A DNA stretch of 64,000 bases, from contig NC_092677.1 in the NCBI RefSeq assembly GCF_964355755.1, forward strand, positions 18,436,101-18,500,100. The letters are read 5' to 3'. The stretch comes from Antedon mediterranea. Its lineage: Eukaryota > Animalia > Echinodermata. Both the position numbers and the translations under genes were made by a program. Shown here one piece after another: positions 2,723 to 43,422 of this stretch; the first letter of the stretch is position 1, and each line of letters opens with the position of its first letter. Below the pieces are notes generated by a model. That model did no database searches and was not told where the DNA came from. It worked only from the letters and a program-made list of their open reading frames with translations.

Positions 2723-2728
2723 ATTGTA

Positions 2729-4153: not shown

Positions 4154-4288
4154 TGTGTAATCACTTCTTGTTGCTATACGCTTATTGGGTGCACACGGAA
4201 CAAGAACATTTAACTGATGAATTATTCATGTTTATTTTGTGACGTTTCATGAGGGGGTCCCCAACTTATGTACGAAAACAAAAATCGC
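4154..4288. mobile_element. Solo right TIR of the MULE-type MITE family found at 32389 and 39467
   Basis: Matches 39929-40060 (TGTGTAATCACTTCTTGTTGCTATACGC...GGGGGTCCCCAACTTATGTACG..AAAATCGC); followed by GGACCGGAT. Confidence 0.85.
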
Positions 4289-20002: not shown

Positions 20003-20216
20003 TTAATGTAATTATTCTAAATAACATCAATGAGGAAAATTGCAAAATACATCATAAACATAATGTTTTAAACATGTGTTATTTCTTATGTTTATGTTAA
20101 TTTAACCTTTTATATTACATAAAATTGTCTTTCAAAATGATACACTAACCATTCGTACTTATACTAATTAATGTTCACTATCATCATGGCTGCTAAACTG
20201 TAAGTAATTTACTATT

Positions 20217-20665: not shown

Positions 20666-22877
20666 GCAGATGAAAAAAAATCTAGTACACAAATTATCCT
20701 ATGATATGGGTTCATATTGTTCATTTTTTTTTTTGCTGGTAGACACTGTGTATCAAGAGTGTGTATATATTTACATAGTTTCTAAATACTGTATATTCAT
20801 TTGTTCATATACTAATTGATATGCTAATTTAGTGTCCAAGGTTATGTATGTGAACTGAACTGAACTTTTATTGTATCTCTTTGAAATCAGAGGCACAGTC
20901 TCAATGAGATGTGCAACAAGTTTACAGTGAAAAATAATACATACACACTTAAATATAAATACAAAACAAGAAATTAGACATAAGAACAAAATTACTAAAA
21001 AAAAATAAAAAATTAAGAAAACTGAGACAGATTAAATACTAAGAAAATGAATAAATGAAGTTTGAGAAGGAATTGTATTATATATATCATTTCGTGTGTT
21101 CCAAGCCATGGTCAGAAAAATTTTACAATGTTTGTCGAAAATAATACTTGCTAAATCGTATACATCATGGGTCAATTGATTTGGTGTAATTTTAAATTCA
21201 TTATGGATTTCAAGATCATCGAAGAATAAGTGGTATTTAAGATCTAGAGAGCTAGTAGTAAACAATTCCCAGAACATGGATAGATTATTGTCGTTTAGCT
21301 CATGTTTAAGGTTCATGAGTATTGGTTGCATTTAATTGGTATTAGTATTACAGTTTATTTTTAACTTGGTTTTATCAAACTTCCGTTATTATATTTTTAT
21401 ACTTATATATTTTGCTATTGTATGTTTAATTGTTTTAAGGATGCACCATTATTATGTGTGCCGCTGTTCAAAAAGCGTTTTCCGAATACATTATTATTAT
21501 TATTATTATTATAGCTCTGTACTTTGAAATACAACAGCGCCACCTGTCGTCTGGTCTCAGTTTCATTTGTAAACACCACCGCGAGATATGCAACAGTCGG
21601 CGGCCGTTTCGACTGTAAACCCCTAGTACTACTGTAGCTTGGCTGAAAAGCAAAACTTCGACAGACAATTGGAACTTATCTAGGCTAATTATGGTTTTCC
21701 AACAATTCCACGTCTTGTAGGGATGTCCCCATTAATTAATCAAAATTCTAAAAACGATCTAAAGCTAATTTAAATGTTGCTTGTTGAAGCTTCGGCGGTA
21801 TTGGCATCCCATAGAAAATGTTGGCGGCCGTTTCAGTCGGCGGCCGTTTCGGTCACACACCGTACTGGCTACTAGGTCTAGCCTAGGCCATGCTAGTACT
21901 AGGCTAGGGTAGTCTAGGCGTTTTAGCCTTGCTAGGCCTAAGATTGTTTGGTCGTTTGTTGACATAATTAACACTAAAGTTGGTGTGTTTATAAAATCCA
22001 TATAAATATAACATTTAATATAATATTAAAAACCAAATGATACTGTTTTTAATCAATGTGAATGAAATGTAGGCCTTTGGCTAGGGCTACCTTGCCTTAT
22101 TTGATTCAAATGACAGGAATCTATTTAGATGTTAGGCCTATATGAAACAAATAATTAATGTTTTATATTCGTGTAATGGTAATAATAATAGCTTTTGGTG
22201 AATGATGAAAGGTTAATATCAACTCGGCTGTTGCCTCGTATATATATAACCTTTCATCATTCACCTCATGCCATTATTTTGTACCATTACACTCTTAAAA
22301 ATTCATTATTTGTATATTATTGCTTAATAGTATGCTGCGTTCATAGAAAACACAAACTAAGTTCTAGCTAAGCTAAGTAAGACATTTTTTCTTCATATCA
22401 GTTTAACAAGTTGATTATAATGATATACAGTATTTACAGTAACACCAACACTAACAAAGTTAATGAATGCTCTAATGTGGCCTGATGGTGCTTTTATTTG
22501 AAAGTGGGAAAGACATGGCAATAATGAAAGGAAATGAGACCAATCACTTACGATGTATTTCATATAACTGTAAATCGCTTAATTTTATAATGTTTATACA
22601 AGAGCACTTGCTCTAACATGAAGAATTAGGTTTACTTAAGTCTATACACGAGGAATATGATGGGATGGGGGTGTCCGCGGTTGATTCTTCTAAATTAGGT
22701 CTACTTATTGGTCGACCGTTTGGTGGTGTCGCTATGTGCTATTTAGGAAATGTTTAGGTAATTTTATTATAGCAATAGCAACAACAAAGTAATAATAGAA
22801 AAGTTGTGTCTTAATAAATAGTTTTATTTTCACAATTATCACATTTGATCCAGGTTGAAACTTTATTTTACAGGCGA

Positions 22878-25800
22878 ATGCAAACGTTGGTAGTTGTGTT
22901 TCTAGCCGTGTTTTTTTTTAACGGTGGTTGTGGTGAAGGTAAGTTAGTATCAAATAATATATTATTATCTTTAATTTGCTTTACAATGTATTACTATATA
23001 CATTATTGATTACATAAACCTACAAGTATAAAACAGCAACTCAAAGAACAAATATTCAACTGGGAGCCATTGGGTTTCTTTATATAAATTTACGTAAGGA
23101 AAAAATTCGATAAATCGCGCGTTATTTCTAGAATGTTTACTCGATGGTATATAAAGTTGGTTCGTGCTTTCGGTACTAATTTTAACCACCTGATGTAACA
23201 CTGTTTACTAATTAAATTGATAATTAGTTATTGACAAAACACGATTTACCCCAAATAGGGTTGTTTTCCGATCATGGTATACACTGTCTAATGGATGTCT
23301 ATCTTGAAAAATACCCGCACACAATAATACAAGGATGCTTCGCATTTTCCTGTCTTTCCTCCTACGATAAATGTTTTAATGGCTGAAAACCGATTGAACA
23401 GCTCGAGTACAGAATCATATTGTTGAGGATTTTCTTTAAAAAATACTATTTTGATAGAATTGATATACGTTTAAACCACATGTATTGATTTACGGTGAAT
23501 GAAACATTCCAAAGGTATTACTAGAGGGTTCGTTCGCTCGCCATCCTCAAGGAAGTGTAGACGTCGACGGTTCTCGGAATGATAATGACTCTGGTAAAAA
23601 TGTTTTAGAAGGAAATTTTTGCCTGGACATTTTCGGTCGGTTACCATTATTGAAATGCTTGATATTCGTAACTCACTAACCTGTTTCACAGTGTCTTATG
23701 ATTAATAGCGTTTTACGTATAGTGTTTATTGTTAGCACTAGGGATTCAGACCAAAAAAAATCAAAAAGATCTAACGTCTATTGATTTTTGGGCAAAAAAT
23801 TGCCTCAAACTGAATCCCAATAAATGCAAATCTATGCGACTTACTTAGAGAATATATCCCATTATATACAGCATTTCTGATATACGTTTAGATTGTAATG
23901 ATTTATTAAACATTTTAGGCTGTTCCATACAAAGTAACTTGTCATGGGACAATCAAGTTCAGGATGCAGTGTCAAATTGTAACCGTCTTATTGGTCTTAT
24001 ACGGTTAATCACATCTATGCCTCTAGTAGTGTAGTTCTCCATCTTTATAAGACACTTGTGCTGTCATGCTTTTATTATTGTTCTCTAGTGCGGTGGGTGT
24101 ACCGTAAAAAATATTTAAATATGTTAGAATCCGTTTAGAGGAAAGCTACCTGCATGATCTTAAAGAAAGGTTATTTACATCAACATTATATAGATAGAAG
24201 AAAGGAGCTAGGTCTAATGTCAGTAGAGAATAGACGTGATTTCTTAAACAAGACATTCATTGCCAATATAATAATTTCACCACGATCTGATTTTATGAGT
24301 GATTATATTGATTCTTTAACCGACACCTAGTTATACTTACCTTTCATTATGGTAGAGTCCGTACTGATGCTTAAATAATCAGGGATAGCAAAATGTTTTC
24401 AGAACTTGGTGCTCCGATTAGAAATAATCTTATTGAAGAGTCGTTTTTTAAGTTTAAACACAGTTTAAAGCAACATTTTATAGATTTTTTACTTTTCATA
24501 TTTTTATTTATTTTTTTAAATTGTACCTACTCTGAATTTTTAACTTTTTAACTTTTAGAAAATCAGAATTTTTAACTTTTATACAATCATAATTTGTAAC
24601 TTTTATACAATCAGAATGAAGATGACAGTTTTATTGCTTTTCCGCTACCCTGTTATACTTACATATTTTTTTTTATGTAGAAAGATTGAAAATAATTAAA
24701 AAACAAAAGAAAGAAGCGTGACAAAGAAGCGTGAGATTTAGATTAGGATTTCTCTTGCTCCAGTCGGCCATATGTAACAGAATGTGGCACACAATCGTGC
24801 GTGCTGGTGGTCTTATGACGACTATGACAAAAAATACATAACATAAGTTGCTGATTGTTGTTAACAACCTTTTTTTATCTTTACAGAGATCACATTTCCA
24901 GGAGGTTTCGGAGGAGGAAGAAGTAAGTAAAAGAAAGATATATGAAACTATAAATAAACATTCATTGTTCGTTTTAATGTTTCTCGATTTCATTGAGGCA
25001 TATTTAGTATTTAAAAAAATGAATTATGACATGCTTCATTGCTTTTATACACTAGATGGTACGCTCGCTTCGCTCGCGTACCATCTAGGTCGTGCCCACA
25101 GATGGTTCTCGAATACATAATAATTTCAGCGTTAAAAAACTGGCGATTTCAAATGTACGTAGGCCTACCGCAGGACAATAATACATGTCGTTTACAGGAA
25201 CGAATAAATAGACACTGTGATTTATGTACTCAACTAAAATTAGCACCCTGGGAATTACTTCCGAAAGAGAAACTTGTCACAAAATGAGACCAATTGTTTA
25301 AGTCAAATTTAAACAAACTTAATTTGTGTTTTGTATGTAACATTAGGGTTGAGGGATGGGGAAGAGGATGGGTGCAAAGAGGAACACTTTTTAAATATAT
25401 TCTTTATCCATTTAGTAACGAAATATTAATTGTTTTCATGTTTTACAAATAATATACCACTACACACAGTAAAACATTGCGATGTAATACTTTGTTGAAA
25501 CTATCACCGTCATAGTCGATTGAAATAGTACAGTACATGTAACGATACATCACTACGACGTGTATATGTTTATATAATGTAAAACAATTTGTGAAAACCA
25601 CCTCTATTCAGGGAAAATCATAAATTCGATTTAATCGTCAATAAATATTAAATTATCTAACTCAACTTAATTAGTAGGCCTAATGGTTTTCAATTGTTTC
25701 TTAGAGCCAATTCATACTTAAGTTGGTTCCTACCCTACCCACCAAAGTTGTTCTGCGTTTAGGGCAATGTACCGTAGGCTATCCTCTACTGGTTTTACAA

Positions 25801-28800
25801 CGCTACTCATGCCAGTGAGGGAAGGGTGATGATGTGGGTGGTTTAACTGCAATAATAAAGATGTGTACATAATATACGGCGAGTGAAAACGCTAGCTCAT
25901 TATCCGTTTAAACAAAATTTATATCCAAAATGGATCGAATTTCTGTTATGAGTATACAGTACTTGCCTTTACGACGCCTGAGGGAATAGACGGTTGTGGA
26001 ACAGAGATTGGAATGTTCCATTCATCGCAAATCAATACATTTGTATAAACGTATATTAAATCTATCAAAATAGTATTTTTTAAAGAAAATCGGCCTGTCT
26101 TCAACATTATGATGCTGTACTCGAGCTGTTCAACCGGTTTTCAGCCATTAAAAACAATTATCGTAGGAGGAGATAGGAAAATGCGAAGCATCCTCGTATT
26201 ATTGTTTGTGGGTATTTTTCAAGACGAACATCCATTAGACAGTGTATACCACGATCGAAAAACACCCATATTTGGGGCAAATCGTTGAACCTAAATTCGT
26301 TTTAATCGATCAATAACTAATTATCGAACTCAATTTAATTAGTAAACAGGGTTACATCAGGTGGTTAAAATCAGTACCGAAAGTACGAACCAACTTTATA
26401 TACCATCGAGTAAACATTCTAGAAATAACGGGCGATTTACCGAATTTTGCCCTTACGTAAATTTATATATAGATGTATAGTTAAAACATTGTAATGCTTG
26501 TTTCTTACAGGAATACAACCCACTGGAGGCCATGGTGGTGAGTTGAAAGTGTTTTATATACAATATGTTTTAGTTTTCACAAATACTATTATTTATTTAC
26601 TTGATAAACATAAAACTATGTTGAAATGGTTGTATTAAGCATATAATAATACTTATATTAATAATGATAAACCAATATAATACAAAATATTGTGCAAACT
26701 GAACAATATGTAAGTGTACCGACCAGAATTGTTCTACATAAAAATAGGACTTTCTATATAAAAACTGCCAAATTTCCTAAAACGACGAATTTTCTGTTTT
26801 TACGCTCTACCGTACGCATCTTTAAAAGAATAGATCATTTCGCAGTTTTAAATAATTTACTCACTTCCGTAATCAAGTTTTGTTTTATTTTTCTTCTTCT
26901 TTGTTTTTAGAAGTAGGTCATTGTTTAAACTGTAAATACATCACGTGTAAGCCAAAGCAGCCAAATCTTTCAACTCATGAAATAATTATCTTCTTTCAAA
27001 ACACTAAACTCTTCACTACCTGTTACAAAGTACATTTCTATTCAAATAATGATTCTATCTTCTTGAATCGTTGTCAAACTCTAAGCTAGGAAGGTAGTCC
27101 ATTAAAAAGGCAGCACTCCTATTTTGAAATCGAAATAGTACCATGGATATTTTGAATGCGAAAGAGTTAAAAAGCTGCACGGGCACTATGACTATGAATT
27201 AATGAGGTATAAATTAAAAAAATGTATACCTTCATGACTAATCTGAAATCATATGTATATCCCTAATATGTCTACATTGTTAAAATATTGTTCTCTGTAA
27301 AGTTGTCCTTGATTCTCAACCGCAAAACAATGAAGCCAAAATGTTTTATAAAATATCCAAGCACCACAATAATCTAAATCAAGATACATAGGCCTACAAT
27401 ACAAGATCAAAGGAATTATTAAAATTGGATAAACCCAAAACAGAATTTAAAACTAAAGTTTTTGATATCGTGGTAGATTATGGAATACTGTAGAAAACCC
27501 AATGCAAAGTGCCAAAAATACTTAAACAAAACTTTGCATGTAACTTTATTTTGTACCCCTAAATATAATGAAGGTTTCTGTTTATTTAGGCCTATGTTTT
27601 TCTCTCTCTTTTATTTTTAAATTAGTAATGTATTAAGTTGATCATGGCCTTGTTGTAGAACACTTTTCCGTGTTAAAATAAAATGATTTATTATTATTCT
27701 ATTATTATATGGAAAAGAGGTCATATATATTTAGAACGATTAATTAATCTTCCCCAACTATGACAAATGTGATGGCAAATGCCGTATAAACAATTATGCC
27801 CCATCGTTCACGTAAAGTTATCATGTATACTTTTTCAGCTCATGAAAGAAATCGTCGGGATAAATGTGAGTAGCTCCTGTACATATTGTAGTTAATAGGC
27901 CTACCTTTGATATATTACGTCTGTGCTGAAATAATATTTCAAATATATGTTTTTTGTTATTGATTATATAGGCCTATGTTCATTGAATTTGTATCGGTTA
28001 CTATTTGTATTTAACCTTCTGTTTTGAAATAAAATAAATATTTTCACTGAAAATGCAATAGGCCTACATACGGACACTTTAAAATAAAGTAAATGCTTTG
28101 GGTCGATAGCTATGGCAATGTTTTGGTCAATATAATAAAATTAACTAAAATACAAAGAGGACGTATCGTATCTTTATAATTTTACATACATATCGTAAAT
28201 GTACACCGATACACTACGTAATCAATTAGGTGGGGGCACATAGGCTACGTACAGCATACATTTTGCATACCTTGATTTACTGAATTTCAGATCGCTGTAA
28301 CTAAAACGTGTTACAAGGCTTAAACAAGATTAGGCCTATAACCTAACAAATTTGGGCTGTTCAAAATGTTAATTATTTGTTGTTCTACGCTTTGTAGCAC
28401 TAGTACCTCCTGCCGTAACTGGAATAAATGTTGAAAGTGGTGAGTCAACTATCCATAACTTACACTTATTTTAAACAGTAACAGGCTGATAGACAAGAAA
28501 CAATAATTATATTTTATTGCCTATGATAAAATAGGCAATAGCGTTATAGCCTACGTATTACATTTTAAAACAAGTTTAGCATAGTAACAGTACTATATTA
28601 CATTACATTATGTAAGTGCCATAAGTTATCATTTGTTTTTTTACTGTATTTCAGGTCATGACAGAATCCGCCGGGAAGAACGTGAGTAACTGTAAAAAGT
28701 TGATAAAACATTTATTTAAACAAGACTTATAATAAATCTAATATATTTTTATTATCTTAACATTTAACTTTCGATCACATCACTTTTTTTTTTTTATTAT

Positions 28801-31800
28801 TTATTTTATTTTATTTTATTAATAATTTTGTATAGTAATATCATAATCAACACATATTAACTTTCTTGCTAATTGTTTTGGTATAGATAATTAAATGCAT
28901 AAAACTCAATGAACTGAAATAGGCCTACGTATTGAGACCAACATCTACGTATCGTACTTTATACATTCAACATTATCGTAAAACTAAACGTTGATAACAT
29001 TGTTTAAACAAGATTATAACATAACAAATGTGTACAGTCTGTTCAAAATGTTAATTATTTGTTCTACGGTTTGTATTATTAGAACCTCCTGGCCCAAGTG
29101 GTAGAATAAACGTCGAAAGTGGTGAGTCAAATAACCATAACTTACACTTACACAATTCAAAAAGAAAGAGAAGAAACAATAATTATATTTCACTGCCTTT
29201 GATTTAGGAATAAAATATGCAAACGTATTACATTTTGAAACAAAGTTTAGCATCGTAAACAGTACTATTACATTATGTAAGTTCAATAATTTATTATTTA
29301 TTTAATGTATTTCAGGTCATGACAGAATCCGCCGGGAAGAACGTGAGTAACTGTAACACATAACACATAACTTAATCTATTTTTATTATCATAAAACTTA
29401 ACTTTCGATCACAACACTAAAATGTACCTTCATCGAAATGTTTATGTGCTAGCTGCTGTAGTTCTTCTTTGTGATTCAAAGTTTAATTGTATAATATTAT
29501 CATAACCAACACAGATAAACTTGATTTCGAATACATTTTCAAATAATTAATACATAGGCTAAAAATCGAAACGATTTAAAATAACAAGTAAAAATTGAAA
29601 AAATAAATAGTCAACCGAAATAAAGGAATACTGGATTAATATTTTCCTTCTACTATTTGTATTAAGTACAGCTCACTATGTCGGTCGGTTGGTCGGTCGG
29701 TCAAATAACTGAAACATGAGCACGCGACTGCAGCCATGTATATGTCCGTGTTATATTCATCATATCGTAAATATACACCCACACACTACTAAATCAATGA
29801 GGCGGTACAGTAACACACGTACAGCAACAATTGTTCATACCTTGATTTACTGAATGTCAGTACACCATCTCACCTAGTAAGCTGTATTGTAAAGGTCGTT
29901 GATCTAAATGTTAGTAAAGCGATCGCATATTCGGTGTAAGAACAGACAGAACAAAACATTTTGTGGTTGATAATATAAAATCAAATGCATTTACTCTTAA
30001 CACTTGTGTCCCACAGAGATGTGTTCTGTCCCCCTTTTTATTTACTTTATACTCATATGATTGTAAAGCAACTAGCGATTGTCACATTTTTAAATTCGCT
30101 GATGATGGGCTGATGATACAACCATAGTAGGTCTAATTACAAAAATGACGAAAATAACTATTTTAAACAGGCCGAGAGAATGATCTTGTGTTGAATGTAA
30201 ATAAAACAAAAAGAAATGCATATTTTTTTTCAGACGTCAGCAAAATTAAAAGTTCCCACTAATCCAAGGCAAAGAAGTTGAAATTGTTACAAGTTCTTAT
30301 GTATTCACTTTGCCGATGTTGACAAATGTTTCAAAAAAGGATCTCAACGTATTTTCTTTCTTAGAAGGATCAGGCAATTTGGTATTAGATCAGAGGTACA
30401 TTAATAATAATAATAACAGACTATCGATCAATAGTTGAAAGTATTCTTACTTTATCCTTTATGGCTGTTCCAATGAAGATAAAGAATAATAAAAGTTACA
30501 CAAGGTTGTTAGAAGTGCATAAAAAGTCATAGCCATACCCAAACGTTCTATTGGTACTTTGTACGCTGAACGTTTGCTCAAAAAGGCAAATTGATGATCA
30601 TAAATGATCCATACTATCCTGACATTTCCAAATTATGTCTCACAGTCACATATTTAGATCGATACTTGTAAAAACTAATTTCTGCAATCAGCAATCCGTT
30701 CAATTAATGATACATGTTTACGTTTAAGTGTTGTACTTCCCTGAAACCTTGAAATACCGGAATGGTGTCCGGCGGCGGGGTTTAGTTTTGACCAACCCCG
30801 AAACCTTGAAATACCGGAATGGTGTTCGGTGGGGTTTAGTTTTGACCAACCCCGAAACCTTGAAATACCGGAATGGTGTTCGGCGGGGTTTAGTTTTGAC
30901 CAACCCCGAAACCTTGAAATACCGGAATGGTGTCCGGCGGCGGGGTTTAGTTTTGACCAACCCCGAAACTTTGAAATACCGGAATGGTGTCCGACGACGG
31001 GGTTTAGTTTTGACCAACCCCGAAACCTTGGAATACCGGAATGGTGTCCGGCGGCGGGGTTTAGTTTTGACCAACCCCGAAACCTTGAAATACCGGAATG
31101 GTGTTCGGCGGCGGGGTTTAGTTTTGACCAACCCCGAAACCTTGAAATACCGGAATGGTGTCCGGCGGCGGGGTTTAGTTTTGACCAACCACGAAACCTT
31201 GAAATACCGTAATGGTGTTCGGCGGGGTTTAGTTTTGACCAACCCCGAAACCTTGAAATACCGGAATGGTGTTCGGTGGGGTTTAGTTTTGACCAACCCC
31301 GAAACCTTGAAATACCGGAATGGTGTTCGGCGGGGTTTAGTTTTGACCAACCCCGAAACCTTGAAATACCGGAATGGTGTCCGGCGGCGGGGTTTAGTTT
31401 TGACCAACCCCGAAACTTTGAAATACCGGAATGGTGTCCGACGACGGGGTTTAGTTTTGACCAACCCCGAAACCTTGGAATACCGGAATGGTGTCCGGCG
31501 GCGGGGTTTAGTTTTGACCAACCCCGAAACCTTGAAATACCGGAATGGTGTTCGGCGGCGGGGTTTAGTTTTGACCAACCCCGAAACCTTGAAATACCGG
31601 AATGGTGTCCGGCGGCGGGGTTTAGTTTTGACCAACCACGAAACCTTGAAATACCGTAATGGTGTTCGGCGGGGTTTAGTTTTGACCAACCCCGAAACCT
31701 TGAAATACCGGAATGGTGTCCGGTGGCGGGGTTTAGTTTTGACCAATCCCAAAACCTTGAGATACCGGAATGGTGTCCGGCGGCGGGGTTTAGTTTTGAC

Positions 31801-34800
31801 CAACCCTGAAACCTTGAAATACCGGAATGGTGTTCGGCGGGGTTTAGTTTTGACCAACCCCGAAACCTTGAAATACCGGAATGGTGTCCGGCGGCGGGGT
31901 TTAGTTTTGACCAACCAAGCAACCTTGAAATACCGGAATGGTGTCCGGCGGCGGGGTTTAGTTTTGACCAATCCCGAAACCTTGAAATACCGGAATGGTG
32001 TTCGGCGGGGTTTAGTTTTGACCAACCCCGAAACCTTGAAATACCGGAATGGTGTCCGGCGGCGGGGTTTAGTTTTGACCAACCCTGAAACCTTGAAATA
32101 CCGGAATGGTGTTCGGCGGGGTTTAGTTTTGACAACCCGGAAACCTTGAAATACCGGAATGGTGTCCGGCGGCGGGGTTTGGTTTTGACCAACCCCGAAA
32201 CCTTGAAATACCGGAATGGTGTCCGGCGGCGGAGTTTAGTTTTGACCAACCTTGAAATACCGGAAGGGTGTCCGGCGGCGGAGTTTAGTTTTGACCAACC
32301 CCGAAACCTTGAAATACCGGAATGGTGCCCGGCGGGGTTTAGTTTTGACCACGTAGTTGAAGTTCTATTTTTTTGCTGTAGCCGGGAAGCGATTTTTTTT
32401 TTTCGTACATAAGTTGGGGACCCCCTCATGAAACGTCACAAAATAAACATGAATAATTCATCAGTTAAATTTGTTGTTCCGTGTGCACCCAAGCGTATAG
32501 CAACAAGAAGCGATTACACAACTGCAATACGATACTTTCTACAACAGTAGGCCTAGGATTCTAAGTCAATTCACGCGATTGCCTTCGCGCACTCTTCTTC
32601 ACACAAAATGTGTCGAGTCGAGGCTAATCGACAGCTAGGCAAGACATTAAACTAAGTAGTAATTCATTGGACATAGCCCAAAGAAAGCTTAGACCCACAA
32701 GAATAAAGAATGTGTATAATTTGTGTACTGTATTTTTTTTAATTCTGCTATTTTATTATCAAACAATGCATGTACTCAAAGGAACTTTAAAAATGCGCGT
32801 ATATGAACACATGAGATGGGAAGATTAGACCCACTAGAATCGTACCGCACTTGTGTAATCATTTCTTGTTGCTATACGCTTGGGTGCAAACGGAACAAGA
32901 ACATTTAACTGATGAATTATTCATGTTTATTTTGTGACGTTTCATGAGGGGGTCCCCAACTTATGTACAAAAAAAAAAATCGCTACCGGGATGCGGGATA
33001 TCTTGACGCCATATCTACAATGTCCCTCTCATATTGGTCTAACTCCTCTCTACGTTGCGGATAAGCTCCGCACAATATATTTTTATAAATACCAAAGGCA
33101 TATATGAACTCCCCGATATTTAGCCTTTTGTTTAACCTTATATCTTTAGTGTGGGCATTTGCACCATCCTTGTTGTTGGATTCGATGGATAGACCAGAGT
33201 AATACGGAATCATTATTGATGCTAAAATAACATCCCTACCTGAAATGATCTGTTGCCGGATTGCCGGAGAGATTGTTTCCACTAAAGCCCCTTTCTCACA
33301 GATGTGCCTGCAATATACCGGTACAGTGCTGGCGTCGTGCCGGTATCGTTACCGGCATATAACCATTCTCATCGGACTATCGTGCCGGAAATATAACCGG
33401 TATATACCGGCTTTCTGTGAGAAAGCAGTCGGGCATATTCGGCCAATAAAAAGTCTCTGACAAAATAATTATTGAGGGCGTCCTTTAAACTGATTCCCAG
33501 TTTTGCTAAGACGTGTGCGTCTATTAATATGGACATTGACTCAATTTTCGAAACTTCCTACCTTGGCAATGACCCTGATAGTCATTGGGTTAAGAGATTT
33601 AAAGAGTTGATGCATGACACAAACATTGCATTTTGGAAAAGTGAAATGCTAAGAAAATCGTCACTTCAGACATACTCTCTTATTAAGTCTAATCCCTGCC
33701 TTGAAAAATATTTATTGGATTGTACAGACTTTCTAGGATCTAGCCTCAAATTCAAACTACGTTCTAACACCCTTCCTTTAGGTCACAGGAGTTGTAAGTG
33801 GCTTCCTGAATATGATGGTATCTGTAAAATGTGTAAGAATGGTTTAGAAGACATTCAACATTTTCTATTCACATGTAACCAACTCAATGGCATAAGGATT
33901 GAAGAATATACCAAATTAGAATATATGTTAATCGATATCAATCATTTAGATGTATGGGAAAATTGTATCTCTGGTGACCTGAACACCAAATTAAATCTTG
34001 TATTAGGTGGAACTGATAACTACTATCATTATATGTATGACGTCGATTCCATATCAAATATCTTTGATTGTTACTGTAAGCACTATGTTAAAAGAGCTTG
34101 GGCACACAGATGTATTGTTCTAGGCGAGTAATGTTCATATCAATCAAACTAAATGATTGATATCTATCTCACTAAATGATTGATATCTATCTCATTATAG
34201 TGTTAGGTCTACATTGTTGTTGCCCAATTCATTTTATATTGTACAGTTCCTACCTAGTATTCTATATGTTTATTTCTTGTAATTTTGTATTTTTAGGTGT
34301 CAGTTCAATGGTATTGTAGTTACTGTAGTTGAATTGTTTTGACATGTTGACCTATGTCGACTTTTTATTGTAATTGTTATTTTCTATATCATGTTTTTTT
34401 TTTTTTGTATATTTCTCTTGGATGCACCTTCCATTTGGTCGAGTGCCACTGTTGTAAAAGTGTAATCTCCAAATAAATTATTAATGTTATTATTTTTGTC
34501 TAGCGATGATATGGCGGCGAATGTCAAGTTACAGATTATTATCTTCCTTTATAGCATATTTATGCAATACATGCTATGTACAGTATATTGTGCATATATT
34601 ATACAGGCATAGCAATTAATTTGTCGTCATCGGCAATCTGTAAAACACCTTAGAAGGCTGTAGGCCTACAATTTACAAGGCGATGAAAGGTCAGGCACCA
34701 ACAAACAAAGAGCTAAATGGCCTAGCCTAGCGGCCTATAGATTATGCTACAAATTTCTTCTTGTCCCCTTATTTTAAGCAGCTCTCTTATCTCATTATCC

Positions 34801-37706
34801 CTCCAGTTCGACATTATTATTGTTAATTGAATTGAATAGGCGCCAAAGTGATACACTTGACCGCGCAATGTGTCAAAGCCTCGACGGGGAACCCCGGAAT
34901 TTAACGGCGATACGTTCTCACAGAATGCCCGTCTGGCATTGCGGGGAATATCCCTAGAATATTACTAGGTCTAAAGCAGGTCATGTCGATGCCGGCATGG
35001 TGCCGGCATGATGCCAAGACGACCCGTTCTCACAGAAAACCATACCGGCATGGTAATGGTATATTCCCGCAATATTCCTGGCACACAACTCTGTGAGAAA
35101 GGGGCTTAATAGACAAGTTCTATTTCCTCTGAAATATGGTGTAAGAAGCATTTTTGGGTAGAAGCTGGGATCCACTTGATTTAGGATATTTCGACCTCGC
35201 TGATTACGAATATGGCGGATCCCAAGCGAAATTCGGCCATCTAAGCCCTTAATTTGCATAATTAAAAATGGCGGCCATTTTTTATAATTACCCTATATCT
35301 CGAGAACCACTAGTCACAGATAATTAATTTTGGTCTCAAAATGTTTTAAATATATGTTTTTATATTCACTTTAATGACACATTTTCTCAAAAAATGGATG
35401 CAAGTCTTATTTCTGACATTTTGACCTTTGACCTTTATTTATCGTATCTCAGTAACCAATAATCGGAGAGACACGAAATAGGGCTCAAATTGTTCAGAAA
35501 CTATACATTCATATTTATTATAATGAAATGTTTTTACAAAAAATGGCCAATTCTACAACTATTGACCTTTGAACTATTAGTCAAATATAATAATATAATG
35601 ATAATATAACTTTGAAAATTGTGGTCTTATGAATTTTTTTTTCTTTTTAAATTGTTTAAAATATGTGTGTTTCTATCCAGTCTAATGGCACATTTTGTAC
35701 AAGAATGGCCGATAGTATGGTTATTGACCTTTAAACTACAGCATAGGCCTACTGTATACTAAATATAATATAATTGCATAACTATGAAATTATTTATACA
35801 CAATAATAATTAGTAAAATTATAAAATTCACTGCCATCAAATATGATGTGTTATGATTTATATAGATTAAAAAAAAAATTTGAACACGCAAGTTACATTT
35901 GTTGAAATTTGAAATTTGAAATCAAGACTAAAAAACATGAATTTTCCTTAATATGGTCAAATACAAAATTTGGCAAAATTCTTCCATAAAAACCAGGAAG
36001 GCTTTTTTTCAGTAGTTAGGTAGTAAACCTAATGTAATAACATTGAAAAAAGATGGTGGATATACAGTGGATAATTTTTTTGCTATAGCATGAAAATAAT
36101 TATTTTCAACAAGCTCGTGTAACACAAATTAAATGCCAAAAATTATGAAACATAGGGGAAACTATAGATCGATAATTATTGGAATGTATGATCAATAGAA
36201 ATTTTTTGCCCGCACCTGGCCTTTAAGGTGAAAATTCGAGCCAACAACAACAAGTTTACGTACTGTAATTAATAGGTAAATTAATTGTATTACATTTCGT
36301 CTGGAAAATCGTCGCTAGCGAAAGTAAACAATAAGATTTCAAACCACGAGTATGCATTATGCATGATGCTAATTAGGATTTAGAAGGACTATAGTGACCT
36401 CACACAAGGTTACCGTACTAATAAATTAAACGTAAAAGACTAGGCGACATATTAATAAAAACAGGTGTCCCTATCAAATAGATCAGATTCACTCGACACG
36501 GCCCTCCAAGCATATAACGCTCCTGCGAACAACAATATATACCTCAAGGATGTTAAAAAAAACAAATATGTAAGTTACTTACCGGTAATTCTACATTCAT
36601 TAACCATTATCAAATAATATTCCATATAAAATCATTTATGCTTTAATCATCTCTATTCTATTCTTCAGATACCAATCCATGTGACTCAGTTGATTGTAAA
36701 AATGGTGGAAATTGTTACATTAATTCTTATTACCAAGTTTATTGCGCGTGTCAAGATTGTTATTCTGGAACATACTGTGAAAAATGTAAGTTTGTTGAAT
36801 TTTGAATTCAAAATTATTTACTGCAATTACTTAAGTTATTTGAATTATAATTAACAATTTATACCCATTTTTGTTACAGATAATGATCCTTGTAATGATG
36901 ATAGTAATCCATGTCAAAACTCTGGTCTCTGTATTTCTGAGGGTTGTAATTTTTGGTGTAAATGTCCAGCATGCTATACTGGTGACAGTTGTGAATATTG
37001 TAAGAATCCTACCCACATACATACAACGTTCTTATATTAATTATAATTTTACAATTAAAATACATTTTTCTTATAAAATAATAATTAATCATTTCAGCAT
37101 TATTTTCAAATCATTTTGAAAGGTCTTACTTTCCATCCTCCTATCTGTTGTAATTGTAATTTTAATTGTGTTTGTATGAATTTATTTCACTAAATTTTAA
37201 TAAATTATTTTCTGCTTAGACATTAACCCTTGTGAAGATGTGAATTGTAATGGCGGGCAATGTGTAGTTATTTCAAACATCAGTCAGTGCACATATGAAT
37301 GTACCAACTGTCCATATGGCTATACTGGAAACAATTGTGAAACTCGTAAGTACAGTATTCAATTACTTGTTAAAGCATGCCATTTGGTTATAAATTCCCT
37401 ACAGGTGTTGGTGCCGTCGTGGAACTACTGGCAATAGATGTCAATGTAAGTATGAACACGGATTACAAAATGTATGTGTTTATGCGTTTGTTACCTAATT
37501 AACAATGCCTCTCGGAGTACAGTGATTTATTTGTTACTAACTAATTAACATGCCTCTCGGTCTACAGTGATTTATTTGTTACTAACAAGACTCCTATGTC
37601 ATAATTAACAATGCCTCTCGGAGTACAGTGATTTATTTGATAAGACTAACATTTTACAATTTTACTTGCAGATACTTCTGGTTACTACGCCCCATACGGA
37701 GGATAA
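22878..37706 (+). CDS. Secreted precursor: signal peptide, micro-exon peptide repeats with convertase sites, 3 EGF-like domains. Exons 22878-22938, 24887-24922, 26511-26537, 27839-27865, 28398-28439, 28655-28681, 29083-29121, 29316-29342, 36669-36785, 36880-36999, 37220-37345, 37672-37706
   Basis: Every exon has a pyrimidine-AG acceptor and all but the last a GTAAG/GTGAG donor; all introns are phase 1 and all internal exon lengths are multiples of 3. Joined frame: MQTLVVVFLAVFFFNGGCGEEITFPGGFGGGRRIQPTGGHGAHERNRRDKSLVPPAVTGINVESGHDRIRREEQPPGPSGRINVESGHDRIRREEHTNPCDSVDCKNGGNC...CETHTSGYYAPYGG*. The splice from 29342 to 36669 is inferred. Confidence 0.72.
23080..23512 (+). mobile_element. Helitron 5' fragment of the same family
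   Basis: TATATAAATTTACGTAAGG..AAATCGCGCGTTATTTCTAGAATGTTTACTCGATGG is the reverse complement of the end at 26400-26470. Confidence 0.75.
23760..24480 (+). mobile_element. Degenerate CR1-group LINE 3' fragment
   Basis: Remnants KLNPNKCKSM, SNLSWDNQV, VVLHLYKTLV, LESV*RKATCMI and RRKELGLMSVENRR. Confidence 0.65.
25052..26473 (-). mobile_element. Complete non-autonomous Helitron in intron 2 of the micro-exon gene
   Basis: 5'-TC...hairpin-CTAG-3' on the minus strand; the paralogous intron at 41467-41490 shows the empty site TTTTATACA|TGTATAGTTAAAAC with no TSD. Confidence 0.95.
27800..29860 (+). repeat. Tandem duplication of a two-micro-exon module with its introns, about 2.5 units of 650-800 bp
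   Basis: Exons 28655-28681 and 29316-29342 are identical and 27839-27865 is related; 28398-28439 resembles 29083-29121; flanking intron sequences are also similar. Confidence 0.85.
29930..30737 (+). mobile_element. Degenerate Rex1/Babar-like LINE body (RT 3' half); probable 3' tail displaced to 40070-40140
   Basis: Remnants CVPQRCVLSP, FKFADD, LNVNKTK and SQRIFFLRRIRQFG. A tail with AATAAA and CTTGA repeats follows the composite block. Confidence 0.7.
30738..32350. repeat. GC-rich minisatellite, 57/54-bp unit, about 29 copies, with a 447-bp higher-order duplication
   Basis: Unit CCCGAAACCTTGAAATACCGGAATGGTGT(C/T)CGG(CGG)CGGGGTTTAGTTTTGACCAAC. Identical ORF-track peptides at 30829 and 31276 mark the 447-bp repeat. 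Confidence 0.97.
32389..32983. mobile_element. MULE-type MITE, copy 1 (about 595 bp, about 135-bp TIRs)
   Basis: GCGATTTTTTTTTTTCGTACATAAGTTGGGGACCCCCTCATG...CATGAGGGGGTCCCCAACTTATGTAC(A)nTCGC; nearly identical to 39467-40060 and in the same orientation. Confidence 0.92.
32984..33282 (-). pseudogene. DIRS/Ngaro-type retrotransposon Gag-like fragment
   Basis: ETISPAIRQQIISGRDVILAS...DIRLNKRLNIGEFIYAFGIYKNILCGAYPQRREELDQYERDIVDMASRY resembles ORF1 of tyrosine-recombinase retrotransposons; bounded by other elements on both sides. Confidence 0.65.
33286..35106. mobile_element. PIF/Harbinger-like non-autonomous element with a nested LINE fragment
   Basis: TIR AGCCCCTTTCTCACAG...CTGTGAGAAAGGGGCT; TSD TAA at 33283-33285 and 35107-35109; subterminal CCGG-rich motifs. 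Confidence 0.85.
33472..34492 (+). mobile_element. 5'-truncated non-LTR retrotransposon 3' end (RTEX/CR1-group-like; ORF remnant 33472-34131)
   Basis: SSLQTYSLIK..LEKYL..KFKLRSNTLPL..CKMC..EDIQHFLFTC zinc-knuckle C-terminus; 3' UTR ending in AATAAA and an ATT-rich tail. Confidence 0.75.
36669..37345 (+). CDS. Three phase 1-1 EGF-like domain exons (36669-36785, 36880-36999, 37220-37345)
   Basis: NPCDSVDCKNGGNCYINSYYQVYCACQDCYSGTYCEK; DPCNDDSNPCQNSGLCISEGCNFWCKCPACYTGDSCEY; NPCEDVNCNGGQCVVISNISQCTYECTNCPYGYTGNNCET. Canonical AG/GTAAG boundaries, no stops. Confidence 0.92.
37497..37640. repeat. Short intronic tandem repeat, 3 copies
   Basis: AATTAACA(A)TGCCTCTCGG(AG/TC)TACAGTGATTTATTTG three times. 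Confidence 0.85.
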
Positions 37707-39466
37707 TATCTTAAAAGAAAATAATAATGAAATAAATATTATATAAATAAGCAGGAATTGTGTGAAAACAATGTTTAACACGATTCTATTTCTATCACAT
37801 CTCCAATGATCATTCAGTAAGATATTTCTAATATTTGTGAATTTATTTATATTATATAATATATTAGGTAATTTTAATACTATTTTATAAGAATTTATAT
37901 TAATAAATGAATAAATATGTAAAAGATAATTTATCTTCATTAAGATAATAATAATAATAATAGGGCCTAATAATAATACATTTTTAGAGCGCATACAGGG
38001 TTAAGCCTCTTTGCGATTAACAATAGAAAATAACAAGTTTCCAATAAAATAAAACTGGAACTAAATATTAAATAATATAATATAAGCATTAATATAACTT
38101 TTAGTTTGATAGAATTTGTAGCTAGGGACGTACTGTATTTTGAATTTAATGTTACAGTATAATTAATTTGTTACAATGAAATTCATGGGTTTTTGTAAAA
38201 CCAGAAAAGAATTATTATAATTTATTTATATAAACGGTGTTCAATTTGAACTAAAATATAAAATAATATGATATTTGATTTGTTTTGTATTTGTTTACAA
38301 ATAAAAATCTAAAAGTATGTCTAGTAGGACATTTGCTTTCTACATTTTAATAAACGTACTTTTATAATTAAAATTGTGATTACTTCGTTATTTTTGTTAC
38401 TCCATAATCAAATAACTTTAAATTAGATAATAGCAAATCTAACAATTATTTAAAGTTGTGAACGTCTAATTAATTATAGCATTTCTAATGTGTAATGTAT
38501 TTCATCGATCAGATTTTAAAGATGTATTGTCTCCCAAAAACATGACGGAAAAATGAAGATTAATAAAATCAGACATTGAATAGGCCATTGTATATTTTTA
38601 ATTAAGCTGTAGAAAAATGAAAAAAATAATGGTTTCACTTATAAGAAGCCAAATTAACTAATTGTCTGAGACAATTTGAGTATTTTTTGCTTTTCAGGTA
38701 AATAATTTTTTTTTCGATCCAATTTTTGGTTAAAGTTTAATATTTAAAGTTACATTAAAATGGCATATTCAACAAAAACATGTTATATATAGTCAACTGA
38801 TTCATATCTAATGCAAAGTAAACAATGGAATTCACGAAATCACCACTACAATACCACAAAGCTAAAGAAGTCCTTTTACTTCATTAAATCGTGTGTACAA
38901 AACAATTCATTCGAGTTACTACGATACCAACCAATTGTTGCTGTTCTTACCTCGTGTCTAATATCATTGGTCTTTATGATTCATATTAATCTTTATTGGT
39001 CTAATCATAACAAAAAATGTAATACGAAAATGTTTATAAACTGCAAATAAAATGTAAAAATATACATAAATATGGTTAATAACATCTCATTAAATTGGTG
39101 GTATATTATTGTAAAATGCTTCACTAAAAGTAACATAAACATAATCACTTTACGATTGTCATTTTTATGACATTCATGACAGACTACAATTTATATTGTC
39201 ACGTCATTTTTGCCATGACTATAGTCTTTATTGTCATCACCATTGAATCACCATGACTACGATCATTATCATTATTTGTTATCATAATCATGGTTACAGT
39301 CATTGTCATTTATGTTATGTTATCATCACTGTCAAAACGGTCCAACATGTCTAGCTCATCTGTCATCTTTTGTATGATTAGTCCTAGTAATCGTTATTAA
39401 TGCATATTTTAATATTAAAGTTGATCGTCTTATAGGCCTAATTCGCTTCTATACCCGGACCCGGAT

Positions 39467-40060
39467 GCGATTTTTTTTTTCGTACATGAGTTGGGGACCC
39501 CCTCATGAAACGTCACAAAATAAACATGAATAATTAATCAGTTAAATTTGTTGTTCCGTGTGCACCCAAGCGTATAGCAACAAGAAGCGATTACACAGCT
39601 GCGATACGATACTTTCTACAACAGTAGGCCTAGGATTCTAAGTCAATTCACGCGATTGCCTTCGCGCACTCTTCTTCACACAAAATGTGTCGAGTCGAGG
39701 CTAATCGACAGCTAGGCAAGACATTAAACTAAGTAGTAATTCATTGGACATAGCCCAAAGAAAGCTTAGACCCACAAGAATAAAGAATGTGTATAATTTG
39801 TGTACTGTATTTTTTTTAATTCTGCTATTTTATTATCAAACAATGCATGTACTCAAAGGAACTTTAAAAATGCGCGTATATGAACACATGAGATGGGAAG
39901 ATTAGACCCACTAGAATCGTACCGCACTTGTGTAATCACTTCTTGTTGCTATACGCTTGGGTGCACACGGAACAAGAACATTTAACTGATGAATTATTCA
40001 TGTTTATTTTGTGACGTTTCATGAGGGGGTCCCCAACTTATGTACGAAAAAAAAAATCGC
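39467..40060. mobile_element. MULE-type MITE, copy 2; right boundary of the putative composite transposon
   Basis: Near-identical to 32389-32983; right flank AGCCGGGAA (40061-40069) equals the left flank of copy 1 (32380-32388). Confidence 0.92.
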
Positions 40061-41302
40061 AGCCGGGAAACCGTTCAAATTCATTTCAATGTAAATTGGT
40101 CTATGTTTTACAAATAACAATAAATTTACTTGACTTGACTAGAGAGGCCAGAAATACAAGTCTTCTAAAAAATGTTTAGGAGATTTTTTTGTTAATAGCA
40201 GGCAACCATGTTGAATGTATACTTTGTGGGGTGACAAAAACGATAGGGGTGGATGCCATCTTCAGTTTTGGGATTTAGGTCAGTTATGTGGTTATGTGGA
40301 TTTTTTTTCACGCTGCTGCTTTAGCCAGCTATGTCCCAGGAGGATGACTCATTAAGAAACCGAAAGTAAAGCAGAAGTTTTGCTAAAGGTTGACAGTTTT
40401 GCTAAAATGTATACTCGACTGTAATTTATAGGTACCACCAAAAAACGTCTGGGAAAGAGTCTAACGGTTGAATGACAAATCCCAAAGCATTTGTGGTATT
40501 TATGAGTTCAATGATATTATAAAATTCGCTTTCAGATGATACTTCAGACTTGAATGAAGTATCTAGTCATGATGGAGTGACCCGCAGACTTGACCTTAGC
40601 AATAAAATAAACTAAAGTGACTGATATGAAACACAGACTCTGTAACAAAAAAATAATATTTGTTCACATATAAAAAAAGAAAAAAAAACCGTTTAATTAT
40701 AACTCAAAAACCACTGTCTGACAATTAAGTATTTTTGACATTAAATTACATTTTTTCAGGTAAAATAACTGTTATGTGACAATAAAATGACACATTCAAA
40801 CACAAATTTGAAATAAAAAATATTTTTCAGAGGGACAATATATCTTTAAAACTGTTACGTCAATAAGCGAGCAGCGTTTTTTGTAAGAAATATTTCTTGT
40901 TTATTTTATTTTATTCACAGAAAATCACATCTACAGATTTTCTGAAGATCAGCTATCATCAAATATTATATTAATTATGAGATAAACATTTTATTTTATA
41001 CATAAAAACATAGGAAATGAAATACAAAAGTGTCATTTTCTCAAAATGTTGTTTTCACATAATTTCGATAGAACATCTTTTAAGTGGCGTGAAAGACACA
41101 CTGGGCGTTTCATAGAAATCACCGGCGGCTCAACTTGTCGGCGGTCCGCATTATTTTTTTTCTATGCAATTAAGGCAGAAATCATTGAATAATTCATTAT
41201 AGAATAATTATGACATAATATGGGAAAAGTGTATGCCATTAAAATACTGATACTAAGTGTTTCAATTACAGTGAAAACGTCTTCCATTTTTTATCTTTAC
41301 AG

Positions 41303-41540
41303 AGATCACATTTCCAGGAGGAAGAGGAGGAGGAAGAGGAGGAGGAAGTAAGTGAAAGAAAGATTAAATATCAAACTATAAAAATCATTCATTGTTCATA
41401 TTTCTTGATTGCATTGAGGCATATTAGTATTTCAAAGAAGGATTGAATAATGACATGCTTCATTGCTTTTATACATGTATAGTTAAAACATTGTGATGCT
41501 TGTTTCTCTATAGGAATACAACCCGCTGAAGGCCGTGGTG
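41303..41540 (+). CDS. Paralogous micro-exon pair (41303-41347, xITFPGGRGGGRGGG; 41514-41540, RIQPAEGRG)
   Basis: Homologous to exons 24887-24922 and 26511-26537, with intron homology extending to about 41795; splice sites intact, phase 1, lengths 45 and 27 nt. Confidence 0.7.
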
Positions 41541-43422
41541 GTGAGTTGAAAGTGTTTTATATACAATATTTTTTAGTTTTCCCAAAATACTATTATTTAT
41601 TTACTTGATAAACATAAAACTATGTTGAAATGGTTGTATTAGGCATATAATATAGGCTTATATTATAAATGATAAACCAATTTTGTTGATTTATTTATTC
41701 TAATTCTTCAAATTATTAACCAAAATAGATATGATACAAAATATTGTGCAAACTGGACAATTTACAAGTGTCCCGACCAGAATTGTTCTACATAAAATAA
41801 AATGTTTAAACTAAAATTCACAACTAAATACCATCGATATACAAATTACATTTAACAACAAGTTAAAAGCTTAGCATCAAAGTTATGTTTTAGTGTTAAA
41901 GACAAAGGAGAATATAATTAATATCGAATACTTTTACATACAACATCATTCATCACAGTCGTTAACTTATTAAAGCTTCCACTCCCCACTTGGACAAAAC
42001 GCGTGGTCGCCACAAGTAAATTGACCAATCACGGCGCGGTGGATCAACTTATCTGTGTCGAGGAGCGAGGAAACAAGTCCCAATATTGCAATGAATAAAT
42101 ATGACGTAGGTTGGTCGTCGGTCAGAGGTTATATCTGTATTTGTGTGTCTACTATATCATAAAATTGATAAAAAAAGGATACAAATTGTCAACAATAAGC
42201 TACAAATAAATGTTCACAATTTTCTTAAACTGTACAGTGTGATTAATTATTATTATTAACTATTATATCATTATTGTATATACATTTTAATGTAATTAAT
42301 TATTAATGTTTCAATTGTATTTTTAGATGGTTACTAAGGAATTACATTGATCAGCCATAGATACATCTCTTTATCCTTATGTAAACAATTGGCGAATATA
42401 AACACTTGTGTGTTTTTGTGTAGCCTACATGTACAGGAACATATTCATCATTCGCGGTACTATACGTACCATTTATTTGTATCAACAACATATATATATA
42501 TAAAGTATTTCTTTCACAAGAATATTTCTATAAATACATATTGTTAAGAGATAAATATAAAGCAAGGAAAACGTGAAAAATAATTACGAAAAATTACAAT
42601 AGAAACATTTTTAAGGTAAATTCCAGTTTTAGATGTAGAGCAAAGTAGAAAATAAAAGAAAACTATGAAAAAAGATGGATATTGCGAGAACATACTACTG
42701 TCTGGCTATTTTAACCACTTCTCTATCAACACTTGTGTCTCTCTGTATTTGCTCTGTGCAGTTATGCGCATCCCTAGCTGTAACCTCATTAATGTTGGTC
42801 AGAGTACAATAGTAGTTCTTTAAATTCCTATTCAACATTTAAATTCTAAAAAAAACCAATGGTTTAGGCCTATATGTACTTTGTTTGCGACATATATAGC
42901 GCTTTTACAGTGGGTATAACTTTTTGAGCGTTCGTTCATTCTTGTGGATTCAACCAATGTATTTTAATATTTAGGTTTTGCCAAAGCCACTAGAAATAAT
43001 AACACATATTTATCATGCTTGCTGTTGTTTTTATTTATAAGGTTATTTTATTTTTGGAAATCTAAATGTTTATTTAGCCACAGTGTGCCTGTCTTTATTT
43101 TCATATACTCGCAATTCCATCATTTTCTTATACTGACCATGATTGCATAAAAGAACCTTGATATGGTTAGAAAGCTACACTCACACTTGTTCCGTTTCAC
43201 GGAATGGAAGACGTTCAATTATTTTTATGATTTTCCATTGCTTACCAAAACAGACTCGTGTTCCGTTCTCTATGGTGTGATAGCAATGTTGCCTTTTTTT
43301 ATAAGTCTTCGTTATAAAAGGTCCTGTGGCATAAATTATGACCTATTCAATGCACGGTTGTTCATTTCAACGGCTAGTACTCCGAAAATCAAAAGGGAAA
43401 CACGACGGGTAACCACACGACG

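What the first reader, a model, noticed from the sequence alone, without database searches (positions are those of the whole stretch)
29930..40140. A LINE split by the 7.67-kb block independently supports its insertion as a unit
Seen: a + strand Rex/Babar-like RT relic ends near 30710 and runs into the minisatellite with no tail. Right after the second AGCCGGGAA lies ACCGTTCAAATTCATTTC...AACAATAAATTTACTTGACTTGACT, an AATAAA plus CTTGA-repeat tail like that of the Rex/Babar relic at 48604-48640, with no LINE body beside it. Inference: removing 32389-40069 rejoins one LINE 3' UTR, so the block is younger than the LINE and foreign to this spot.
Basis: partly seen in the sequence, partly recalled or inferred. 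Interest (0 to 1): 0.7.

Follow-up and report, generated by a model that had tools for sequence, protein, structure and literature searches.

The report
MITE-flanked gene block splitting a LINE
In what is likely a feather-star genome, a 7.7-kb block bounded by two copies of a small DNA transposon interrupts the tail of an old retrotransposon and carries part of an EGF-repeat gene, which the two transposon copies likely moved here as one unit, a known kind of gene-fragment shuffling.

Summary
Confirmed. Other copies of the tail family, in all 4 runs laid, carry directly upstream of the tail the sequence that lies at 32355-32383 in the window. So 32355-32388 and 40070-40141 are two halves of one LINE 3' end, and 32389-40069 came later. 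The block is two 595-bp MITE copies (98.7% identical, 148-bp TIRs) around 6.5 kb; only the outer 9-mers match. The cargo holds three EGF exons, half a fourth and a last exon, near-identical to two predicted Antedon proteins on other-sized contigs that have more EGF exons: a truncated copy from elsewhere. Best mechanism: composite (macro-) transposition, 0.55; ectopic recombination into a resident MITE, 0.3. Not shown: that the RT body (29918-30714) and this 3' end are one copy across the 1.6-kb minisatellite (inferred from spacing), an empty allele, the donor locus, or any transcript. The cargo exons are sense and in phase with a host mini-exon gene, so a 200-codon chimera is possible but untested. 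A new member of a known kind (Drosophila Ising TE, maize macrotransposons).

The parts
29918..30714 (+). 5'-truncated, frameshifted RT relic of Rex1/Babar type (clade label recalled; 5' edge lies between 29861 and about 29920)
   Evidence: (RVT_1 E 0.0015, PF09004 E 0.01, both under the curated cut-off)
30715..30738 (+). presumed first 24 bp of the LINE 3' UTR
   Evidence: position only; not compared with the family
30739..32351 (.). minisatellite, 29 units mostly of 54 or 57 bp, 52% GC; a second interruption or an expansion inside the UTR
32352..32379 (+). LINE 3' UTR, part left of the block (32355-32383 matches the family)
32380..32388 (+). left 9-bp target duplication AGCCGGGAA; LINE UTR sequence with two G more than the family
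32389..32983 (.). left MITE copy, 595 bp, 148-bp TIRs, no coding frame of its own
32984..39466 (.). cargo, 6483 bp of ordinary genomic DNA with nested repeats and EGF exons; inner 9-mers TACCGGGAT and GACCCGGAT
32986..33285 (-). retroelement gag-like frame (DIRS/Ngaro-like by recall; no Pfam hit) cut off by the left MITE
33286..35106 (.). TIR element flanked by TAA on both sides (Harbinger-like by recall), holding a LINE 3' fragment at 33472-34128
   Evidence: (zf-RVT E 3e-5, under cut-off)
36669..36785 (+). cargo EGF exon E1, phase 1-1, AG/GT
36880..36999 (+). cargo EGF exon E2, phase 1-1, AG/GT
37220..37345 (+). cargo EGF exon E3, phase 1-1, AG/GT; 41 of 41 residues identical to P0035 and P0036
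37400..37445 (+). 3' half of the last EGF exon of P0036; the two exons before it and its 5' half are missing
37672..37706 (+). terminal coding exon (TSGYYAPYGG, stop), AATAAA sites from 37731
39467..40060 (.). right MITE copy, same orientation, 7 substitutions and 1 indel against the left copy, none in the 299-bp core
40061..40069 (+). right 9-bp target duplication AGCCGGGAA
40070..40141 (+). LINE 3' end: UTR, AATAAA at 40119, ACTTG repeats
22874..29342 (+). predicted host gene upstream: signal-peptide-like exon 22874-22938 and phase 1-1 mini-exons 24887-24922, 26511-26537, 27839-27865, 28655-28681, 29316-29342
   Evidence: predicted from splice signals, no transcript
41303..41540 (+). two further mini-exons (41303-41347, 41514-41540), paralogues of 24887 and 26511; the block lies in the intron before them

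Best explanation
The block 32389-40060 interrupts one old LINE 3' end and was likely carried in as a composite transposon, a transposase of the MITE's family probably cutting at the outer ends of two neighbouring MITE copies and pasting them, with the 6.5 kb between, into a CCGGG site, which left the 9-bp duplication. Inferred order: (1) a 5'-truncated Rex1/Babar-type LINE inserts in an intron of a mini-exon gene and decays; (2) a minisatellite arises in its UTR and this copy gains two G, which makes the CCSGG core found beside all five MITE ends in the window; (3) at a donor locus, a deleted copy of a multi-copy EGF-repeat gene, two MITE copies insert 6.5 kb apart in the same orientation, each at its own CCSGG site; (4) the pair moves as a unit, each copy keeping only its inner old target 9-mer. 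Shown: the split UTR, the outer-only duplication, the twin MITEs, the truncated EGF cargo. Inferred: steps 1-4, the enzyme, the donor, and that the RT body belongs to this 3' end.
For: Family copies are collinear across the block in 4 of 4 runs laid (one match in the window, 0 of 100 shuffles). Outer 9-mers 9/9 identical, each MITE's own pair only 6/9 and 5/9; chance identity given the CCSGG core about 0.003. The family lacks the two G, both duplicated copies have them. Age order: the tail differs from family contigs by 4-10 letters plus gaps in most full-length pieces of 54-74 nt, the MITEs by 8 in 595. Cargo exons equal the 3' part of P0036 (362 aa, 40.9-Mb contig) and P0035 (253 aa, 31.7-Mb contig), whose upstream EGF exons are absent from the window. 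A gag-like frame is cut by the left MITE and has no continuation in the window, and the inner 9-mers occur once each, so the donor is not in these 64 kb. Precedent: Ising TE between foldback elements (PMC6431247, passage), maize Ds-Ac macrotransposon (PMC3260210, passage).
Against: All 7 substitutions between the MITEs lie in the TIRs (P 0.008 if uniform) and 6 of 7 are derived on the inner arms (P 0.06 given arms only; pattern noticed after the fact); mosaic copies are what recombination or a mis-join would give. The inner 9-mers agree at 7/9. No empty allele, donor locus, second insertion or transposase was found; no contig spans the block. The 9-bp length rests on one pair. The body-to-UTR link is by spacing only, and 140 nt is at the short end (4 of 26 shorter).
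Confidence: 0.55

Rival explanations
1. A single MITE first inserted at this site and made the duplication; the cargo then entered by homologous recombination with other MITE copies (gap repair that copied from one donor copy through the cargo to the next, or integration of a circle looped out between two donor copies). The block is still foreign and younger than the LINE, but it did not transpose as a unit.
For: Same junction pattern as composite transposition. Derived changes sit on the inner arms (6 of 7) and the cores are identical (0 of 299). The TIR is very abundant (summed depth about 8.6e5 against about 250 for single-copy contigs in X1; not a copy number). Single-copy Pack-TIRs in animals mostly arise by transposition-independent gap filling (PMC8277862, Introduction and passages).
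Against: The inner/outer asymmetry is weak (P 0.06) and found after the fact; a plain crossover does not by itself make the cores identical; conversion among the many TIR copies can explain arm-only differences under either model.
Confidence: 0.3
2. Assembly mis-join: the real locus holds one MITE, and the assembler passed through MITE copies into another locus and back.
For: It predicts the same junctions and mosaic MITEs. No contig or read seen here spans either MITE from flank to cargo.
Against: The neighbouring 1.6-kb minisatellite is resolved with unit-level variants, which suggests reads far longer than 595 bp (inference). The cargo differs from both database copies: P0035 has two other residues in E2, P0036 has three more EGF exons.
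Confidence: 0.07
3. The cargo is native: the EGF exons are the true 3' end of the mini-exon gene, two MITEs inserted independently, and the tail is a separate 5'-truncated LINE.
For: EGF exons are sense and phase 1-1 like the host exons and supply a stop and poly(A) signals; no terminal exon was found after 41540. The N-termini of P0035 and P0036 look mispredicted, so their true first exons are unknown.
Against: The UTR is collinear across the block; neither MITE has its own duplication while the pair has a perfect one; the cargo lacks the upstream EGF exons of its relatives.
Confidence: 0.03
4. Side question: the 3' end at 32352-32388 plus 40070-40141 is one LINE piece but a different copy from the RT body at 29918-30714. 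The block would still be an insertion.
For: No sequence seen links the body to 32355 across the minisatellite; short 5'-truncated copies are common for LINEs (general knowledge).
Against: Same strand, same clade type of tail, a tailless body and a bodyless tail whose spacing falls in the clade range once both interruptions are set aside; the family is of low abundance (depth 3000-8300 against about 250).
Confidence: 0.08

Closest known systems
Drosophila Ising TE, a segment between two foldback elements (PMC6431247, passage seen; primary papers not read)
   Same: host DNA between two non-coding long-TIR elements, moved as a unit in an animal; FB4 has 9-10-bp duplications and is argued to be a MULE (PMC8277862, passage)
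   Different: hundreds of kb against 7.7 kb; mobility observed there, only inferred here; simple 148-bp TIRs; a CCSGG target core here
Maize Ds-Ac macrotransposon (PMC3260210, passage)
   Same: two elements mobilise the DNA between them
   Different: hAT family with an autonomous partner at one end, up to 100 kb; here two non-autonomous copies in a crinoid-like genome
Pack-MULEs and animal Pack-TIRs, including Ssk-FB4 (PMC8277862, Introduction and passages)
   Same: gene fragments duplicated by TIR elements, often chimeric with neighbouring genes
   Different: there the fragment lies inside one element between its two TIRs; here it lies between two whole elements, four TIRs in all
Bacterial MITE-bounded composites (earlier scan note e1-3953526 names TIME-COMP; papers not read)
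   Same: MITE pair, 9-bp duplication, passenger DNA
   Different: prokaryotic, whole small gene; here spliceosomal exons inside an intron
Rex1/Babar LINEs (PMC6274825, passage)
   Same: often 5'-truncated, conserved 3' UTR followed by short repeats
   Different: this copy is a decayed relic interrupted twice in its UTR

Membership tests
Composite transposon / macrotransposon | two complete elements of one family at the ends | tested here: met
   595/594-bp copies, 98.7% identical, each with both TIRs
Composite transposon / macrotransposon | target duplication only outside the pair | tested here: met
   outer 9/9, own pairs 6/9 and 5/9
Composite transposon / macrotransposon | interrupts a sequence that is continuous elsewhere | tested here: met
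   family copies collinear in 4 of 4 runs; paralogous copies, not the orthologous empty allele
Composite transposon / macrotransposon | passenger DNA has a source elsewhere | tested here: met
   protein level only: P0035, P0036
Composite transposon / macrotransposon | moved by transposase (donor with both full elements, or a second insertion with another duplication) | not testable with these tools
   no genome held; donor not in the window
Mutator/foldback superfamily (for the MITE) | 9-bp target duplication | tested here: met
   one pair only; criterion from PMC3169594 and PMC8277862 passages
Mutator/foldback superfamily (for the MITE) | TIRs longer than 100 bp | tested here: met
   148 bp
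Mutator/foldback superfamily (for the MITE) | autonomous partner with a MULE transposase and the same ends | not testable with these tools
   no genome held; no such frame among the 29 ORFs of 100 aa or more in the window by inspection
Mutator/foldback superfamily (for the MITE) | little target-sequence preference (as reported for Tm1) | tested here: inconclusive
   CCSGG or a one-off variant beside 5 of 5 ends, 4 independent sites, against 23 CCSGG in 62 kb; too few sites, and not a defining trait of all MULEs
Pack-MULE / Pack-TIR | captured fragment inside one element between its two TIRs | tested here: not met
   cargo lies between two whole elements
Rex1/Babar LINE clade (for the relic) | RT domain of the clade | tested here: met
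   RVT_1 E 0.0015 under cut-off; tblastn to 30 of 34 RT plus PF09004-type relatives
Rex1/Babar LINE clade (for the relic) | PF09004-like region after the RT (marker recalled) | tested here: inconclusive
   E 0.01, 15.9 bits against cut-off 21
Rex1/Babar LINE clade (for the relic) | 3' UTR ending in AATAAA and short repeats | tested here: met
   same build in 26 of 43 relatives
Rex1/Babar LINE clade (for the relic) | AP endonuclease upstream of the RT | not testable with these tools
   copy is 5'-truncated inside the RT
Rex1/Babar LINE clade (for the relic) | placement with named Rex1/Babar references in an RT tree | not tested
   no named references were among the hits

The most novel reading that the evidence does not exclude
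Exon shuffling caught in the act by a MITE pair: the block dropped three in-phase EGF exons, a stop exon and poly(A) signals into an intron of an unrelated secreted-peptide gene, right behind exons with RNRR/RIRR cleavage-like motifs, and splicing now yields a new 200-residue secreted EGF precursor; the same CCSGG-targeting MITE family may have spread this EGF gene family over several chromosomes.
Probability: 0.15. Interest if true: 0.75.

Novelty: new member of a known kind. Interest (0 to 1): 0.47.

Why it matters
Composite transposition of host DNA by two small non-coding elements is a textbook mechanism in bacteria but rests on few natural cases in animals. This locus has an unusually clean internal control: the block cuts a repeat whose intact form is seen in other copies, so foreignness and order of events are read without an outgroup. 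With the genome in hand, the donor comparison would separate transposition from recombination in one step, and RNA would show whether a new EGF protein was made.

Tried and rejected
No whole genome is held, so the family was sampled through public-run contigs. First lay, 39990-44000: tables were filled by abundant repeats and showed nothing at the junction. No empty orthologous allele was seen: one X1 contig crosses the MITE/duplication junction, X5, X6 and X7 show none; contigs show presence, not absence. No RNA holder listed; X5, guessed RNA, also covers intronic stretches at low depth and was not used on expression. Exact 25-letter tail pattern: 0 hits in metagenome and in viral contigs. 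A 23-letter family pattern gave 0 matches because of a one-base gap; a merged 21-letter pattern matched 32355-32375 (4 of 100 shuffles) but was chosen knowing the window, so one search is the one relied on. The 80 metagenome loci are too distant to align in the UTR; 37 of 80 had no C-terminal anchor, 17 of 43 no detectable tail, and 3 of the 26 tails rest on ATTAAA and are doubtful. Origin of the minisatellite unit from the UTR: not significant in shuffles (P 0.15 for the tail, + strand). No duplication of 6 or more bases around the LINE. Rfam: 0 matches in 29000-42000. No close relative of the EGF protein beyond P0035/P0036. Host exons are too short for the protein searches. Earlier scan notes: none by place or sequence. 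Paper searches listed no description of a MITE-pair composite in an echinoderm; the library lacks most subscription papers.

Full report
Setting. The window is AT-rich eukaryotic DNA full of repeats. No genome is held. One cargo exon is identical to two predicted proteins named Antedon mediterranea, a crinoid, so the window likely comes from Antedon; this is an inference.

The LINE. Broken frames at 29918-30741 (+) carry weak RVT_1 and PF09004 hits, both under the curated cut-offs. They give tblastn hits to 30 of 34 relatives found with the second relic of the window and align with that relic up to its ORF end. The last conserved motif is at 30679-30711; 24 bp after 30714 a minisatellite of 29 units begins. 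At 40070-40141 lies AATAAA plus ACTTG repeats. The label Rex1/Babar is recalled and fits the description in PMC6274825 (passages seen); no tree was made. The two relics are different families: their 3' ends do not match.

Fourteen runs were listed. On 40046-40182, 22, 7, 26 and 17 contigs were laid from X1, X5, X6 and X7. Other copies begin to match at 40067-40079 and end at 40131-40142 with unrelated flanks, so this is a dispersed family. Of the 8 loose-end rows shown at 40067-40079, 6 read like window 32355-32383, with at least one in each run; by hand 25 of 30 columns for X5, 17 of 19 for X1, 20 of 23 for X7. Two rows do not (X1 at 40078, X5 at 40079), 4 rows lie at 40107, and 13 rows were not shown. 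The first 21 letters of the X5 cell match one place in the window, 32355-32375, with 0 of 100 shuffles giving a match. The family reads AGCC then GAAACC; the window has two more G in both copies of the 9-mer, so they were gained before the duplication. The block therefore interrupts one LINE 3' end. These are paralogous copies; the orthologous empty allele was not seen.

Body and tail. In 80 clade loci, 43 had the C-terminal anchor and 26 of these a tail 70-346 nt behind it (median 234); the window's second relic has 215. The window gives 9434 nt as it stands, 1753 without the block and 140 without block and minisatellite. This fits one copy interrupted twice but is not a sequence match; the long family contigs could not be read out.

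The block. Two copies of a 595-bp element with 148-bp TIRs stand in the same orientation, 98.7% identical. The outer 9-mers are identical and occur nowhere else in the window; each copy's own pair agrees at 6/9 and 5/9, the inner pair at 7/9. A TIR fragment at 4148-4288 has a similar flank, so the family seems to prefer a CCSGG core (4 independent sites). Given that core, chance identity is about 0.003. Nine-bp duplications and long TIRs point to Mutator/foldback elements (PMC8277862 and PMC3169594, passages), but no transposase was found. The TIR is very abundant in the runs. The tail is clearly more diverged from its family than the MITEs are from each other, as expected if the block is young.

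The cargo. 6483 bp of ordinary genome: a gag-like frame cut by the left MITE (DIRS-like by recall, no Pfam hit), a TAA-flanked TIR element with a nested LINE fragment, and exons E1-E3, half of a further EGF exon and a stop exon. P0036 has two further EGF exons (and a misread third) before these and three after E3; P0035 has two before and passes from E3 to the stop exon, as the cargo would, with two other residues in E2. They lie on contigs of 40.9 and 31.7 Mb. The upstream exons, the rest of the gag-like frame and second copies of the inner 9-mers are not in the window. The cargo is thus a 5'-truncated, internally deleted copy of a multi-copy gene from outside these 64 kb. Both proteins are predictions with doubtful N-termini.

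Mechanism. Composite transposition explains all junctions in one step (0.55). Recombination into a resident MITE gives the same junctions and is mildly favoured by the pattern of differences: 0 in the 299-bp core, 6 of 7 substitutions derived on the inner arms (noticed after the fact) (0.3). A mis-join cannot be excluded without spanning reads (0.07). A native cargo is nearly excluded (0.03). That the block is an insertion younger than the LINE I put at about 0.9.

Possible consequence. The block lies between predicted mini-exons 29316-29342 and 41303-41347 of a + strand gene that starts with a signal-peptide-like exon. All internal exons are phase 1-1 with AG/GT; adding lengths gives 603 nt, 200 codons and a stop, if the cargo exons are spliced on. 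Motifs RNRR and RIRR precede the EGF exons (cleavage role recalled). No terminal exon was found after 41540. EGF exons are usually phase 1-1 (general knowledge), so the fit is not strong evidence, and no transcript was seen.

Comparison. Closest are the Drosophila Ising TE (PMC6431247, passages) and the maize Ds-Ac macrotransposon (PMC3260210, passages). It is not a Pack-TIR as defined in PMC8277862 (Introduction and passages seen), as the cargo lies between two whole elements. Searches listed no echinoderm case; other papers were seen as listings only, no supplements were read, and none is relied on. Verdict: observation confirmed, interpretation supported, new member of a known kind, interest 0.47.

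Noticed in passing
window 30739-32351: Minisatellite of 29 whole units, nearly all 54 or 57 bp, so several frames stay open on both strands (up to 586 codons); a 447-bp higher-order repeat. Its unit holds a short stretch like the LINE family's UTR, not significant in shuffles. Origin unexplained.
   Followed up: partly
window 5695-9528 (-): Uninterrupted 1277-codon frame with endonuclease and RT domains, L1/Tx1-like by recall, with a 143-bp near-identical repeat at 5136-5278 and 9765-9907; looks young.
   Followed up: no
window 22874-29342 and 41303-41540 (+): Predicted gene of 27-45-bp phase 1-1 mini-exons built by repeated intragenic duplication; two exons are identical although their introns are only about 71-74% alike, which hints at selection or conversion. 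No terminal exon found.
   Followed up: partly
window 4148-4288: Lone TIR arm of the same MITE family with another interior and a similar CCGG flank.
   Followed up: partly
window 33286-35106: TAA-flanked TIR element rich in CCGG, with a LINE 3' fragment nested in it, itself inside a gag-like frame.
   Followed up: partly
window 20213-20670: Inverted-repeat element whose arms end in a T-run plus CGTACA like the MITE's TIR start; possibly a related family.
   Followed up: no
window 48604-49974 (-): Second Rex1/Babar-type relic with its own tail, another family.
   Followed up: partly
window 51179-56250 (+): Cytochrome b5-like gene, read by eye (label recalled).
   Followed up: no
window 2728-3801, 13324-18811, 23077-26474: Many 73-96% identical copies of one or two palindromic repeat families in both orientations.
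   Followed up: no
P0035, P0036: The EGF-repeat gene has near-identical copies on at least two large contigs and no close relative outside them; a recently spread, lineage-specific family.
   Followed up: partly
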